A stretch of DNA of 64,000 nt. Origin: a virus. Lineage: Duplodnaviria; Caudoviricetes. Both the position numbers and the translations under genes were made by a program. Positions 6,202 through 9,780 of the stretch are shown here, in pieces (the stretch's first letter is position 1; every line of letters begins with the position of its first letter). The notes under the pieces were generated by a model. It was not told where the DNA came from. It did no database searches and worked only from the letters and a program-made list of their open reading frames with translations. The stretch is from the IMG/VR virus record IMGVR_UViG_3300021960_000017; one strand, written 5' to 3'.

Positions 6202-6231
6202 TTGACAAGCAAGTAAAAAAGGTAGTATAAT
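6202..6231 (+). promoter_or_regulatory. sigma70-like promoter
   Basis: TTGACA-N18-TATAAT, 6 nt before ATG 6238. Confidence 0.6.
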
Positions 6232-6237
6232 AAAGGT

Positions 6238-7992
6238 ATGTTTTTAGGGATTCTTACATTACTGGTTGCTCTGTTCATTTCAGGTATTGCAGCCTATTAT
6301 AGTATTATTGGTTTGACTGCTATTTTTGCAGCAGCATTTATACCCATTGTTCTTATGGGTAGTGTGTTAGAGGTTGGTAAGATTTTAACAACTGTTTGGC
6401 TGCATCAAAACTGGCAACGAGCTCCCAGAATTATCCGCGGTTATTTGACTATAGCAGTTATAGTACTCATGTTCATTACAAGCATGGGTGTGTTTGGCTT
6501 TTTAAGTAAGAGTCATATTGAACAGGCAAGTGTTGGTGTAGAACAGCGAGCCCTTAGTGATAGTATTGATGAAAAGATTATTCGTAGCCAAGCAAAAATA
6601 GAACGCTGGGCTGAGGAAATAAAACGTCTTAACACAGGTGGTGATAGCACTCGTATTGATGGTTTGATTGCCAGAGAGCAACAACGCATCAAGGATGCAA
6701 ATGAAAGACTTGTACCACAGATTGATGCTGAAAATGCAAAGATACCTGGCCTAAGACAGCAAGCACAAAGAGAAATTGGTCAACAAGAAAAGCGTTTAGT
6801 TGATGCTCAAAAACGAGCAGAGGCAAGCATTAAAGTTGCACAGGATGAACTTACACGATTAGACGCAGATGTTGAAGCATATACTAAACAGGGCACAACT
6901 GGGTCCGGCGGATTTTTTGGTGGTAAAACTGATAATGTTGCCAAGGGTGCTGAACTACGCAAAAACCAAAAGCCAGAGCGTGATAAACTACAAGCAGACA
7001 TAGATGCAGCAAAAGCAAACGAACTTGCTATTGCAAGTAAGGTGCAGGCCGAAATAAGAGACATTAACAGTCGTTTGGCTACTAGCATTAAAGCAGTTGA
7101 AGCAAGAATTGTAGATATACGCAAGAGTATTGATCCTACCGTTAAACAGGCTAATGATAACATTGCTCGCTATACACTCGAAGCAGGCAATGCTAACAAA
7201 GGTGTAGATACTCGTATCTCTGAAATTGAAAAACTAATAGAAGCAGAGCAGCCTATTATTGATAAACTACGTGAAGAAAAGTTAGTATTTGAGAAAAAGT
7301 ACAGACAGTTTGAAGCAGAGGTTGGCCCAGTTAAATATATTGCTGAACTTATATATGGCACTACCACAGACAAAACGCTGTTAGAAGAAGCAGTGCGTTG
7401 GGTGATAATTATTATAGTAGCAGTTTTTGATCCACTTGCTGTCTGTCTTGTTCTTGCTGGTACAATGACCATAGGCTGGGCCAGACAAGAACGCAAGAAA
7501 AACATTAAAAAAAAGATAGTAAGAGTTGACGACCCTAGATTAGAGGAATTAGAAATGAAACTAGACCAACATAACGACATTCTCAGTGAACTTGAGAGAC
7601 TACTAGATGATAATCTAGGCAAAATGGATCCTGCAGAGTATGCAAAACTCAAAGCAGAATATGACAGCATGGTTGCAGAGCGTGACACACTTGCAGCAGC
7701 ACTTGAAGAAGCAAAAGCAGAGTCAGATGGTCTAGTTGACAAAGTAGTTGCTACTGAAGCAGAGCGTGATGCACTAGCAAAAAGATTAGATGATGTTGCA
7801 GCAGGTAGCAGTGCATTTGAAAAGCGTATTGAAGAATTACTAAAGCGTATAGCAGATCTAGAAGCAGAAGTTGAACGCCGTGATGCAGTGGTGCTTAAAA
7901 TGGCAGAGAAGTATCAGTTAGTTGAAAAAGACAGTTTTGGTGATGATTTAGTTGCAGCCGCTAACGGGCAGCAGACAGAAGCAAAAAACTAA
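6238..7992 (+). CDS. membrane protein with N-terminal TM helices and long coiled coils
   Basis: Three N-terminal hydrophobic segments, a coiled coil, an internal TM (WVIIIIVAVFDPLAVCLVLAG), then a second coiled coil. Confidence 0.85.
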   Translation: MFLGILTLLVALFISGIAAYYSIIGLTAIFAAAFIPIVLMGSVLEVGKILTTVWLHQNWQRAPRIIRGYLTIAVIVLMFITSMGVFGFLSKSHIEQASVGVEQRALSDSIDEKIIRSQAKIERWAEEIKRLNTGGDSTRIDGLIAREQQRIKDANERLVPQIDAENAKIPGLRQQAQREIGQQEKRLVDAQKRAEASIKVAQDELTRLDADVEAYTKQGTTGSGGFFGGKTDNVAKGAELRKNQKPERDKLQADIDAAKANELAIASKVQAEIRDINSRLATSIKAVEARIVDIRKSIDPTVKQANDNIARYTLEAGNANKGVDTRISEIEKLIEAEQPIIDKLREEKLVFEKKYRQFEAEVGPVKYIAELIYGTTTDKTLLEEAVRWVIIIIVAVFDPLAVCLVLAGTMTIGWARQERKKNIKKKIVRVDDPRLEELEMKLDQHNDILSELERLLDDNLGKMDPAEYAKLKAEYDSMVAERDTLAAALEEAKAESDGLVDKVVATEAERDALAKRLDDVAAGSSAFEKRIEELLKRIADLEAEVERRDAVVLKMAEKYQLVEKDSFGDDLVAAANGQQTEAKN

Positions 7993-8026
7993 TTCAGGTC
8001 TCTGTTGCAGAAACCATCAGGGACCT
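7983..8026 (+). other. predicted -1 programmed ribosomal frameshift signal
   Basis: A_AAA_AAC heptamer (7983-7989) just before TAA, 6-nt spacer, 9-bp stem AGGTCTCTG/CAGGGACCT; the -1 frame is open 7965-8306. Confidence 0.72.
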
Positions 8027-8042
8027 TGACTTACCAGCAGGT

Positions 8043-8306
8043 GTGAATATAGACTTTGGTACTGTTTTTACTCAGTATCCAGACAAAGGCGATTTGTTTA
8101 TTAGAGTAGATGTATTACCAAACAGGTTGTTTAGATACACTGGCGATAAGTGGATAGAAATACCCAAAACACGCACTACTAGTTATTTGGGCAATGAAGA
8201 ATATATCAAGCATATTTTAAATGATATAAGTGCAGGAAAAATAAAACTTGAAGATCTTACTGAAGATGAACAGGAAGAAATACAAAAGTTTTTAGGCAAT
8301 GAGTAA
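8043..8306 (+). CDS. hypothetical protein; probably the C-terminal frameshift extension of 6238-7992
   Basis: Frame open from 7965, weak RBS, KGDLFIRVD..RLFRYTGDKWIE motif. Confidence 0.75.
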   Translation: MNIDFGTVFTQYPDKGDLFIRVDVLPNRLFRYTGDKWIEIPKTRTTSYLGNEEYIKHILNDISAGKIKLEDLTEDEQEEIQKFLGNE

Positions 8307-8661: not shown

Positions 8662-8883
8662 ATGCCAGATAGACAACCACGTGGTCTTACAGTACAAGTC
8701 CACAATAATAATGTTAACAAGGCGTGGCGTCGCCTTAAGAAAATGATCCAAGAAGATGGATTATTTCAAGAATTAAAAGAGCGTGAACATTTCACAAAGC
8801 CTAGCGCAAAACGCAGGAAAGAACGTGATATGGCTCGTAAACGCTGGCTTAAGAAAAAGCGTGAAATAGAAATGAACTGGTAA
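8662..8883 (+). CDS. rpsU: ribosomal protein bS21
   Basis: VQVHNNNVNKAWRRLKK...ELKEREHFTKPSAKRR signature. Confidence 0.93.
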   Translation: MPDRQPRGLTVQVHNNNVNKAWRRLKKMIQEDGLFQELKEREHFTKPSAKRRKERDMARKRWLKKKREIEMNW

Positions 8884-9000: not shown

Positions 9001-9426
9001 ATGAATACTCTTACAACTTTTGACATCCCCACACTGAACAGAAACTTTATCGGCATTGATCGTTTGCTTGATCGTATGCTGGTTAATGGACAAACCCAAG
9101 AAGGGTATCCTCCATACAACGTGGTAAAACTTGACGACGATAACTTTGAAATTGAGCTTGCAGTAGCAGGTTTTGGCGAAAAGGATATTGAAGTCACTGT
9201 ACATAACGGAGTACTTGCTATTGAAGGCAAGACTGCTGAAGCCCAAACAGAACGTACATTCCTCCACAAGGGAATCAGCAGCCGTAAATTCCGTCGTACA
9301 TTTAACCTTGCAGATCATGTAGAGGTTAAAGATGCAAAGGTACGTGATGGCATTCTTAGTATTGCACTAGAACGCCAAGTACCTGAAGAATTAAAACCAC
9401 GCAAAATTTCAGTAAATTTCGTGTAA
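9001..9426 (+). CDS. ibpA: small heat-shock protein Hsp20 (IbpA-like)
   Basis: YPPYNVVK, IELAVAGF, FLHKGISSRKFRRTF, DGILSIALER..PEELKPRKI; strong AAGGAGA RBS. Confidence 0.95.
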   Translation: MNTLTTFDIPTLNRNFIGIDRLLDRMLVNGQTQEGYPPYNVVKLDDDNFEIELAVAGFGEKDIEVTVHNGVLAIEGKTAEAQTERTFLHKGISSRKFRRTFNLADHVEVKDAKVRDGILSIALERQVPEELKPRKISVNFV

Positions 9427-9432
9427 ATATAT

Positions 9433-9463
9433 GTGCGGGGAGAGCAATCTCCCCGCATACTTT
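9433..9463 (+). terminator. intrinsic terminator-like hairpin
   Basis: TGCGGGGAGA-GCAA-TCTCCCCGCA, short T tail. Confidence 0.7.
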
Positions 9464-9474
9464 CGGAGTTTTAT

Positions 9475-9780
9475 ATGTCTGAAAAAACAAACACAAAAAT
9501 TAAGGTTCGTCCTATAATTGAAAAGGAACCGCCTAAAGATTACAAGGTTATTTTTGTAAATGATCAAGTAACTACATTTGAGTTTGTTTGCGATAGTCTA
9601 GTGACTGTTTTTGATTATGATGAGTCAAAAGCACAAAAGAAAACACAAGAAATCCATGCCCAGGGTGCAGGCGTAGTTGCTGTACTTCCTTTTGAAATTG
9701 CAGAACAAAAAGGTGTGGAAGTTTTAGTACAAGCCCGTAATCAGGGCTATCCCTTAGAAGTTAAATTAGAACAAGAATAA
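9475..9780 (+). CDS. clpS: ATP-dependent Clp protease adaptor ClpS
   Basis: YKVIFVNDQVTTFEFV, EIHAQGAGVV, EIAEQK, YPLEVKLE. Confidence 0.93.
   Translation: MSEKTNTKIKVRPIIEKEPPKDYKVIFVNDQVTTFEFVCDSLVTVFDYDESKAQKKTQEIHAQGAGVVAVLPFEIAEQKGVEVLVQARNQGYPLEVKLEQE

What the first reader, a model, noticed from the sequence alone, without database searches (positions are those of the whole stretch)
6238..8306. Hidden -1 programmed ribosomal frameshift fusing a coiled-coil membrane protein to the next ORF
The 584-aa ORF ends GCA AAA AAC TAA, a canonical X_XXY_YYZ slippery heptamer (A_AAA_AAC, 7983-7989). After a 6-nt spacer there is a 9-bp stem, AGGTCTCTG (7996-8004)/CAGGGACCT (8018-8026). The -1 frame is stop-free from 7965 into the 8043-8306 ORF (KKLIQVSVAETIRDLDLPAGVNIDFGTVF...), which has only a weak RBS of its own. 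Predicted products are a 584-aa form and a ~690-aa form carrying a C-terminal KGDLFIRVD..YTGDKW domain. Conserved phage -1 frameshifts are best known from tail chaperones (gpG/gpGT) and capsid/tail extensions; I know of none for this type of membrane protein.
Basis: partly seen in the sequence, partly recalled or inferred. Interest (0 to 1): 0.85.

Follow-up and report, generated by a model that had tools for sequence, protein, structure and literature searches.

The report
Frameshift-extended phage membrane protein
A membrane protein gene of an abundant marine phage group almost certainly uses a conserved, so far unannotated -1 ribosomal frameshift to make both a 584-residue form and a 689-residue form that carries an extra C-terminal domain, which most relatives encode as an ordinary in-frame fusion.

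Summary
The 584-aa ORF (6238-7992) ends gcA_AAA_AAC TAA. A 9-bp hairpin lies 6 nt downstream, and the -1 frame is open from 7965 to 8306.

In this AT-rich window the cassette alone is only moderately unusual. There are 103 in-frame heptamers, and the hairpin z-score is -2.9. Comparison with relatives makes the case.
- All 20 distinct split relatives keep an in-frame X_XXY_YYZ heptamer 0-1 codon before the stop (AAAAAAC/T/A/G, CCCAAAG).
- All 20 keep a hairpin 5-6 nt after it, and the arms covary.
- 14 of the 20 have no ATG/GTG/TTG from which the downstream domain could start. The window's GTG 8043 is not conserved.
- The domain is under purifying selection (dN/dS 0.12-0.27).
- In hundreds of more distant relatives the same domain is the in-frame C-terminus of the same four-TM, coiled-coil protein.
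- One nested relative that lost the domain also lost the heptamer and the hairpin.
- Independent metagenome assemblies show no indel at the A-run.

Verdict: a genuine conserved -1 programmed frameshift, confidence about 0.88. It is a new member of a known kind, in a DUF4407-like phage membrane protein of unknown function. No product has been shown experimentally. The scan had noted this same stretch once before, on the same DNA.

The parts
6202..6231 (+). Sigma-70-type promoter-like site: TTGACA (6202-6207), 18-nt spacer, TATAAT (6226-6231). It ends 6 nt before ATG 6238, so the mRNA would be leaderless or nearly so.
   Evidence: Sequence read. The arrangement GGTAGTATAAT-N6-ATG is conserved upstream of the gene in nearly all split-clade loci. 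Function as a promoter is inferred, not shown.
6238..7992 (+). Zero-frame ORF giving the 584-aa short form. It has TM1-TM3 (about res 1-92), a periplasm-facing antiparallel coiled-coil hairpin (about res 93-373, tip GTTGSGGFFGGK at res 219-230), the conserved EAEVGPVKYIAELIYG motif (res 359-374), TM4 (res 384-414), a basic stretch WARQERKKNIKKK, and a C-terminal coiled coil (about res 433-564).
   Evidence: AlphaFold2 model, pLDDT 81; hydropathy; more than 7,900 homologues; alignment; DUF4407 sub-threshold in 21 of 67 relatives.
7983..7989 (+). Slippery heptamer A_AAA_AAC in X_XXY_YYZ register.
   Evidence: An in-frame heptamer sits at the same place in 20 of 20 distinct split loci: AAAAAAC, AAAAAAT, AAAAAAA, AAAAAAG, CCCAAAG.
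7990..7992 (+). Zero-frame stop TAA directly abutting the heptamer. It terminates the short form.
   Evidence: In all split relatives the stop lies 0 or 1 codon after the heptamer.
7996..8026 (+). Frameshift-stimulating hairpin: 9-bp stem (7996-8004 with 8018-8026) and 13-nt loop, 6 nt after the heptamer. Weaker flanking pairs can extend it to 7990-8033.
   Evidence: The hairpin is at the same place in every split locus. Eight of about 11 stem positions show both-sides compensatory changes. The covariance model finds exactly one hit per split locus and none in fused or domain-less loci. Pairing is 82% against 28-64% in slid controls.
7989..8306 (+). The -1 frame extension read after the slip: 105 codons (LIQVSVAETIRDLDLPAG...) plus stop TAA 8304-8306. 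It makes the 689-aa long form.
   Evidence: dN/dS is 0.12-0.27 among split-clade copies. Amino-acid conservation starts right at the slip site in close relatives.
8049..8303 (+). Folded C-terminal domain 'B': four beta strands followed by three helices, with conserved FG..FP..KGD.F.RVD.LP..L...G..W.E motifs.
   Evidence: AlphaFold2 model with pLDDT above 87 over model residues 21-100. There are 609 relatives, nearly all at the extreme C-terminus of 170-900 aa proteins. All 33 tested members match the C-terminal end of phrog_11591.
8043..8045 (+). GTG that mechanical ORF listing takes as the start of the 87-aa ORF. It is a Val codon of the linker and is not conserved as a start.
   Evidence: The equivalent codon is GTG in 6 of 20 loci (window, L054, L055, L042, L061, and an ATG further upstream in L004). 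It is GCC or GTA or absent in the others.

Best explanation
The gene at 6238-8306 is one gene decoded in two ways. Most ribosomes read the zero frame to TAA 7990 and release a 584-aa integral membrane protein. This protein has four TM helices, a roughly 2x140-residue coiled-coil hairpin between TM3 and TM4, and a C-terminal coiled coil.

A fraction of ribosomes pause with A_AAA_AAC (7983-7989) in the P and A sites while the hairpin 7996-8026 sits at the mRNA entrance. The two tRNAs re-pair one base upstream. Translation then continues in the -1 frame past the stop and adds 105 residues that fold into a small beta-plus-helix domain (B). The product is 689 aa, with junction ...TEAK(N/K)LIQVSVAETIR.

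The frameshift replaces the ancestral in-frame fusion and fixes a ratio of subunits without and with domain B.

What is shown here:
- the cassette;
- its conservation and covariation;
- selection on the -1 frame;
- the lack of start codons in relatives;
- natural fusions.

What is inferred:
- that slippage actually occurs, and at what efficiency;
- the topology (N and C termini cytoplasmic, coiled-coil hairpin periplasmic, by the positive-inside rule);
- that domain B binds a partner.

The protein's function is unknown. My best guess, held at low confidence, is an early-expressed envelope-spanning scaffold whose cytoplasmic B domain recruits a partner. B's beta module faintly resembles modules of tail-fibre and tailspike proteins.
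For: Evidence that the site is a frameshift cassette:
1. The heptamer, stop, spacer and stem are as described.
2. All 20 distinct loci with the split arrangement have an in-frame X_XXY_YYZ heptamer 0-1 codon before the stop. There are five different heptamers, including the non-homopolymeric C_CCA_AAG.
3. Every split locus has a hairpin whose core begins 5-6 nt after the heptamer. Stem sequences differ while pairing is kept: for example UA/CG/UG, CG/AU/UA, GC/AU and AU/CG at single stem positions, with 8 of about 11 positions showing double changes.
4. A covariance model hits once in each split locus, including L079, which was not in the seed. It hits nowhere in the fused loci, in L007 or in L022, and nowhere else in the 64-kb window.
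5. Stem cells are 82% paired, against 28-64% in slid controls. The covariation score is 0.342 against 0.246 shuffled, reached by 0 of 500 shuffles.

Evidence that the -1 frame is translated as part of the same protein:
6. 14 of 20 loci have no ATG/GTG/TTG in the -1 frame upstream of the invariant FG motif. In L008 the first possible start lies 53 codons inside the domain.
7. dN/dS of the -1 frame region is 0.12-0.27.
8. Domain B has 609 relatives in 1.8 billion representative proteins, almost all at the extreme C-terminus of longer proteins. 66 long ones align with protein A over TM1-3, the EAEVGPIKYIA motif and TM4. Most of 80 further IMG/VR loci are in-frame fusions.
9. L007, nested inside the split clade, lacks B, the heptamer and the hairpin together.

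Evidence against artefact, and support for the heptamer:
10. Contigs from three independent DNA studies, and one contig from a metatranscriptome library, cross the site with no indel.
11. A_AAA_AAC is a proven bacterial -1 site (IS1), and A_AA.R-type heptamers are the most shift-prone in E. coli (PMC4066793).
Against: - No protein, ribosome-profiling or reporter data exist. Efficiency is unknown and could be very low with A_AAA_AAC.
- In this window a GTG (8043) with a weak purine-rich upstream stretch could allow some independent initiation.
- In one distant relative (L022) the B domain lies in a separate ATG-started ORF, so B can apparently work as a separate polypeptide.
- Both hairpin arms are also coding, so part of their conservation may be protein-level.
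- The formal covariation test used a model-fitted alignment of related sequences, and 'pairs with a change on both sides' was reached by 27 of 500 shuffles.
- In-frame heptamers are common in this AT-rich DNA.
Confidence: 0.88

Rival explanations
1. Gene fission. A and B are two separate proteins. B starts on its own at GTG 8043 in the window, or at non-canonical starts or by termination-reinitiation in relatives. The heptamer and hairpin are incidental or serve another role, such as mRNA stability.
For: The window has GTG 8043 just upstream of the folded domain. L022 has an ATG-started ORF that ends in B. Public gene callers call small downstream ORFs.
Against: - 14 of 20 split loci have no ATG/GTG/TTG upstream of the domain core. 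The called ORFs of 70-85 aa start inside the first strands and would truncate the fold.
- Amino-acid conservation in the -1 frame starts at the slip site.
- B is in the -1 frame in 20 of 20 split loci and never in +1, always overlapping the end of A, and always with a heptamer.
- The heptamer and hairpin vanish together with B in L007.
Confidence: 0.05
2. Transcriptional slippage. RNA polymerase adds one A in the A-run, so a subset of mRNAs encodes the fusion in frame. The ribosome does not shift.
For: Most sites are A-runs of 6-8. Heptamers of A are known to allow slippage (PMC4066793).
Against: - The window, L002, L008, L076 and L079 have only A6, and L010 has CCCAAAG with only A3. Efficient slippage usually needs runs of about 9 or more (established knowledge; Baranov et al. 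2005, cited within PMC4066793).
- Slippage would not need the exact X_XXY_YYZ register or a covarying hairpin 5-6 nt downstream.
- The one metatranscriptome-library contig crossing the site has no indel, although contigs drop rare variants.
Confidence: 0.04
3. Artefact or decay. The frame break is a homopolymer sequencing or assembly error, or a recent inactivating mutation, and B is a dying remnant.
For: The break lies at a homopolymer, a typical site of indel errors.
Against: - The same frame structure is seen in independent assemblies from at least three other studies with no indel.
- It is also seen in 20 distinct, diverged loci whose stops, heptamers and stems differ.
- B is under purifying selection with no internal stops.
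Confidence: 0.01

Closest known systems
C-terminal accessory (Ig-like) domains of phage structural proteins added by programmed frameshift (T3 10A/10B, Lactobacillus phage A2 gp5, Listeria phages A118/A500), reviewed in Atkins et al. 2016 (PMC5009743)
   Same: A small C-terminal domain is appended to a fraction of the molecules by a frameshift at the very end of the gene. In other phages the same domain is joined in frame without recoding. This is the pattern found here.
   Different: The carrier here is an integral four-TM membrane protein, not a capsid or tail protein. Domain B is not Ig-like (four strands plus three helices, no Ig Pfam hit). No virion association has been shown for this protein.
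Lambda gpG/gpGT-type tail assembly chaperone -1 frameshift (Xu, Hendrix and Duda 2004, cited in PMC8163748 and PMC5009743)
   Same: A conserved -1 frameshift near the 3' end of a phage gene yields a short and a long form in a fixed ratio. The position is conserved despite sequence divergence.
   Different: There is no homology, the genomic position differs (not between tail tube and tape measure genes), and the protein is membrane-embedded. This site has a clear covarying hairpin, whereas many G/GT sites lack a stimulator.
IS1 insA-insB' (A_AAA_AAC) and IS3-family or dnaX (A_AAA_AAG plus hairpin) bacterial -1 frameshift signals (PMC4066793)
   Same: The heptamers are the same as in the window (A_AAA_AAC) and in relatives (A_AAA_AAG, A_AAA_AAA). 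A downstream stem-loop lies at a 5-6 nt spacing, and the zero-frame stop is close to the site.
   Different: Those are transposase and replication genes. No upstream Shine-Dalgarno-like stimulator is evident here. The gene is from a virus, so the host translation apparatus is unknown.
Pfam DUF4407 (uncharacterised bacterial membrane proteins with a coiled-coil loop)
   Same: 21 of 67 relatives of protein A give sub-threshold DUF4407 hits (best E 3e-6). Three DUF4407 AlphaFold models are among the top structural matches. The layout is the same: TM helices flanking a long coiled coil.
   Different: The window's own protein gives no DUF4407 hit at E 0.01. DUF4407 has no known function, so the relation gives no functional information.

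Membership tests
-1 programmed ribosomal frameshift site (bacterial/phage type) | Slippery heptamer X_XXY_YYZ in the zero-frame register | tested here: met
   A_AAA_AAC at 7983-7989. An in-frame heptamer is present in 20 of 20 distinct split loci.
-1 programmed ribosomal frameshift site (bacterial/phage type) | Downstream RNA structure at about 5-9 nt, supported by covariation | tested here: met
   9-bp stem 6 nt downstream, z -2.89. A hairpin is present in all split loci. Compensatory changes are seen at 8 of about 11 positions. 82% of cells are paired against 28-64% when slid.
-1 programmed ribosomal frameshift site (bacterial/phage type) | The -1 ORF overlaps the site, is open, and evolves as coding sequence | tested here: met
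   Open from 7965 to 8306. dN/dS is 0.12-0.27.
-1 programmed ribosomal frameshift site (bacterial/phage type) | The downstream ORF lacks its own initiation signal, and the same two parts occur as one ORF elsewhere | tested here: met
   14 of 20 loci have no canonical start upstream of the domain. In-frame fusions are the norm in relatives.
-1 programmed ribosomal frameshift site (bacterial/phage type) | Trans-frame protein product observed | not testable with these tools
   No proteomic or ribosome-profiling data are available. Only contigs of one metatranscriptome library cross the site.
Tail assembly chaperone G/GT | Small soluble chaperone encoded between the tail tube and tape measure genes; homology to TAC families | tested here: not met
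   The protein is a 584-aa four-TM membrane protein with no TAC Pfam or PHROG hit. Its downstream neighbours are a 120-aa ORF, bS21, Hsp20 and ClpS.
Pfam DUF4407 | Score above the Pfam gathering cut-off (31.3 bits) | tested here: inconclusive
   The window protein has no hit at E 0.01. 21 of 67 relatives hit at E down to 3e-6. P0012 scores 17 bits, below the cut-off. Structural matches to DUF4407 models have E 7e-4 to 2e-3.
phrog_11591 ('virion structural protein') | Match over the family profile | tested here: inconclusive
   Only domain B matches, and only to profile positions about 412-486 of 497. Protein A does not match the rest of the profile, so this is a shared C-terminal module rather than family membership.
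Phage spanin / lysis membrane protein | Position in a lysis cassette; i-spanin layout (single N-terminal TM plus periplasmic coiled coils) with an outer-membrane partner | tested here: not met
   The layout is four TM helices with a coiled-coil hairpin. A cell-wall hydrolase gene is adjacent only in Mosig. Such genes lie some genes away in the immuto phage and in L078, and none is near in the window. No partner lipoprotein was sought.

The most novel reading that the evidence does not exclude
The frameshift may be a tunable switch rather than a fixed-ratio device. The gene appears to be transcribed as a leaderless mRNA from a conserved sigma-70-type promoter. A phage-encoded ribosomal protein bS21 lies two genes downstream in most split loci. 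If phage bS21-containing ribosomes shift at a different rate, the ratio of short to B-bearing membrane protein would change as infection proceeds. That would be a first example of a virus-encoded ribosomal protein controlling recoding of a viral gene.
Probability: 0.04. Interest if true: 0.85.

Novelty: new member of a known kind. Interest (0 to 1): 0.55.

Why it matters
- The gene family is very common in marine and estuarine viral metagenomes: more than 7,900 homologues of protein A, and the stretch itself was found in 12 studies. Automatic annotation nevertheless splits it into a 584-600 aa 'hypothetical protein' and a truncated 70-85 aa ORF. Recognising the frameshift corrects the gene model for a whole clade of abundant T4-like marine phages.
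- It adds a well-supported recoding case outside tail-chaperone, capsid and transposase genes. As far as I could find, it is the first in a phage integral membrane protein.
- The family offers a natural comparative series for studying why a fixed ratio of isoforms is selected: five heptamers, many stem variants, fused forms, a fission form and a domain-loss form.

Tried and rejected
- tblastn of domain B against 50,697 GenBank phage records found nothing. Protein A found only N-terminal matches in Mosig and several jumbo phages. No cultured phage with the split arrangement is available.
- Foldseek against PDB gave no significant match for B or A. VIA-align gave only Z of 3.9 or less for B, mostly to tail-fibre or tailspike modules. 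AFDB clusters gave weak tail-protein module matches for B and coiled-coil or DUF4407 matches for A. No function could be assigned from these.
- The Pfam Phage_int_SAM_3 hit of B's helices (E 7e-4, below cut-off) was found in only 1 of 33 family members. I rejected it as chance.
- RNAalifold on the MAFFT alignment recovered only the 5 outer pairs, because gaps and a one-base register slip misplace the 3' arm between subgroups. I replaced this with per-sequence folds and a covariance-model alignment. The model alignment still misregisters one subgroup, so its pair counts understate pairing.
- Link between the adjacent bS21 gene and the frameshift: bS21 is next to 16 of 18 split loci, but also next to fused, fission and domain-less loci. 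This is shared synteny, not a specific association.
- The tree of protein A does not resolve whether the frameshift arose once. The two split clades and one fused clade meet at an unresolved fork, so one origin plus one loss (L007) is compatible but not shown.
- The whole genome of the window is not held, so paralogues and the phage's own tRNA set could not be checked.
- The literature searches found no prior description. Subscription journals are not covered.
Full report
**1. The observation**

All the coordinates hold. The ORF 6238-7992 (584 aa) ends GCA AAA AAC TAA. A_AAA_AAC occupies 7983-7989 in the X_XXY_YYZ register. AGGTCTCTG (7996-8004) pairs with CAGGGACCT (8018-8026) over 9 bp with one G-U, 6 nt after the heptamer. 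There is no T-run behind the stem, so it is not an intrinsic terminator. The -1 frame read from 7965 is open to TAA 8304-8306 and contains the GTG-started 87-aa ORF of the mechanical list. The hairpin folds at -14.8 kcal/mol, with z -2.89 against dinucleotide shuffles.

Taken alone this is only suggestive. The window has 38% G+C, and its ORFs of 100 aa or more hold 103 in-frame heptamers. Only three of these lie next to a stop, and this one ranks fourth of the 103 for downstream fold stability.

**2. Comparative evidence**

A scan of IMG/VR with the 584-aa protein gave 35 loci. Scans with the downstream domain ('B'), together with look-ups of homologues, gave more. They fall into clear classes.

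- *Split class.* In 20 distinct loci of the window's clade, B lies in the -1 frame and overlaps the end of A. It is never in the +1 frame.
  - Every one has an in-frame slippery heptamer 0 or 1 codon before the stop: AAAAAAC, AAAAAAT, AAAAAAA, AAAAAAG or CCCAAAG.
  - Every one has a hairpin whose core starts 5-6 nt after the heptamer.
- *Fused class.* In more distant relatives A and B are one uninterrupted ORF of 480-930 aa.
- *Domain-less locus.* L007 sits inside the split clade on the protein tree. It lacks B and also lacks both the heptamer and the hairpin.
- *Fission-like locus.* L022 has B in a separate ATG-started ORF.

**3. The RNA structure**

Stem sequences differ between subgroups while pairing is kept. 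Examples are GGUCUCUG/CAGGGACC, GGGUACCUAA/UUAGGUGCCC, CAGGCUUCUAC/GUAGGAGCCUG and GAUCCCUAC/GUAGCGGAUC.

I tabulated the partner of each 5'-arm column from per-sequence folds. Eight of about eleven positions carry two or more Watson-Crick pair types that differ on both sides.

A covariance model built from the site finds exactly one match in each split locus, including L079, which was not used to build it. It finds none in seven fused loci, in L007 or in L022, and none elsewhere in the window.

On the model alignment 82% of stem cells are paired, against 28-64% when partners are slid. The covariation score exceeds all 500 shuffles. Two caveats apply. The alignment is fitted to the model, and it still misregisters one subgroup, which lowers the counts.

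**4. The -1 frame is translated, and not from its own start**

- dN/dS of the -1 region between split-clade copies is 0.12-0.27.
- In close relatives amino-acid similarity begins at the first codon after the slip.
- In 14 of 20 loci there is no ATG, GTG or TTG in the -1 frame upstream of the invariant FG motif that opens the first beta strand. In L008 the first candidate lies 53 codons inside the domain.
- The window's GTG 8043 is a Val codon of the motif G-V-N-(I/V)-D-F-G. It is GTA or GCC in other loci.
- Public gene calls in relatives give 70-85 aa ORFs from internal starts, which would cut off part of the fold.

**5. Not an artefact, and probably not transcriptional slippage**

Contigs from three further studies cross the site without any insertion or deletion. 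So does a contig from a metatranscriptome library that is about 90% identical. The A-runs are 6-8 long in most loci and 3 long in L010. The conserved register and the hairpin are what ribosomal slippage needs, not what polymerase slippage needs. A_AAA_AAC is the proven IS1 site, and A_AA.R-type heptamers are the most shift-prone in E. coli (PMC4066793).

**6. What the protein is**

Protein A has four hydrophobic helices (about residues 1-92 and 384-414). The AlphaFold2 model (pLDDT 81) has one very long helical hairpin between TM3 and TM4: helices 64-220 and 231-373, with a Gly-rich tip GTTGSGGFFGGK. A further coiled coil follows TM4.

Basic residues after TM2 (QRAPRIIRG) and after TM4 (RQERKKNIKKK) suggest that both termini, and therefore domain B, are cytoplasmic and that the hairpin faces the periplasm. 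This topology is an inference.

Relatives give sub-threshold DUF4407 and tetraspanin hits (21 and 16 of 67), and DUF4407 models appear among the structural matches. DUF4407 has no known function.

Domain B has four strands and three helices (pLDDT above 87 in the core). It has 609 relatives, nearly always at the extreme C-terminus. It matches only the C-terminal end of phrog_11591, annotated 'virion structural protein'. It shows faint structural likeness to modules of tail-fibre and tailspike proteins. Its beta part is repeated 9-13 times in two long proteins, one of which has a Prophage_tail domain.

None of this fixes a function.

Genomic context:
- The downstream synteny of a 120-aa ORF, bS21, Hsp20, ClpS and a GMP-reductase-like gene is conserved.
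- Cell-wall hydrolase genes lie near the homologues in Mosig and in Flavobacterium phage immuto.
- A conserved TTGACA-N18-TATAAT ends 6 nt before the ATG. This suggests early, leaderless expression.
- The nearest cultured phage is Pelagibacter phage Mosig, whose homologue is short and lacks B. The host of the window's phage is not established.

**7. Mechanism and comparison**

The best reading is a classical simultaneous-slippage -1 frameshift that gives a 584-aa form and a 689-aa form.

The closest functional parallel is the addition of C-terminal Ig-like domains to phage structural proteins. This happens by frameshift in some phages and in frame in others (PMC5009743). The closest matches for the signal itself are IS1, IS3-family elements and dnaX. 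The site is not a tail-chaperone frameshift.

In the split clade the segment between TM4 and B is a coiled coil. In many fused relatives it is a long low-complexity linker. A coiled-coil oligomer in which only some chains carry B is a plausible reason for a fixed ratio of the two forms, but this is speculation.

**8. Verdict**

It is a new member of a known kind, and I found no description of it in the searchable literature.

Interest is moderate (0.55). It is a clean, abundant, mis-annotated recoding case in an unusual gene class. However, the mechanism is textbook and the protein's function remains unknown.

Noticed in passing
window 6202-6240; same position in L002-L012, L021, L041, L054, L059, L073, L076, L078: A near-consensus sigma-70 promoter (TTGACA, 18 nt, TATAAT) ends exactly 6 nt before the ATG, so the mRNA would start at or next to the start codon (leaderless). 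The block GGTAGTATAAT-N6-ATG is conserved across the split clade. Fused-clade loci instead have ATAAATA-like, T4-late-like motifs 6-9 nt before the ATG.
   Followed up: partly
window 9414-9480: The hsp20 ORF (9001-9426) ends with an in-frame AAATTTC heptamer followed by the most stable downstream fold of all 103 heptamers in the window (-22.8 kcal/mol). The next ORF (ClpS, 9433) is in the same frame, not -1, so this is more likely a terminator or leader hairpin than a frameshift site.
   Followed up: no
L022 4455-5383: In this distant relative, A (507 aa) also ends in an A-run (cta aaa aaa aag ttc TGA). B lies about 300 nt further on, in an ATG-started 183-aa ORF. Two roughly 60-aa repeat units (MAKPQDEINAIWGKY... 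and MASKHQETIDSLWIKY...) lie in different frames in between. This could be gene fission, several shifts or assembly errors.
   Followed up: partly
L007 4700-4800: This relative, nested within the split clade, has lost domain B, the slippery heptamer and the hairpin together. Its A ORF ends ...cctaaagcagta TGA and runs straight into the homologue of the window's 120-aa ORF.
   Followed up: yes
proteins P0002 (991 aa) and P0008 (906 aa): The beta half of domain B occurs as 13 and 9 tandem copies in these long proteins. P0008 also carries Prophage_tail and DUF2793 hits. The module may therefore be shared with tail proteins.
   Followed up: no
window 8662-8883 and the equivalent in L002-L078: A phage bS21 gene lies two genes downstream of the frameshift gene in 16 of 18 split loci with enough flank. 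It is also present next to some fused, fission and domain-less loci, so this is conserved synteny rather than a frameshift-specific link.
   Followed up: yes
window 6892-6927: A glycine-rich loop with two Phe (GTTGSGGFFGGK) sits at the predicted tip of the roughly 140-residue-per-arm coiled-coil hairpin, which is long enough (about 20 nm) to cross a periplasm. pLDDT is low there, and conservation of the tip was not examined.
   Followed up: no
window 8299-8306: The next gene's ATG (8299) overlaps the last codons of the -1 frame extension (aATGAGTAA). The 120-aa ORF would therefore be translationally coupled to the long form's frame rather than to the short form's stop.
   Followed up: no
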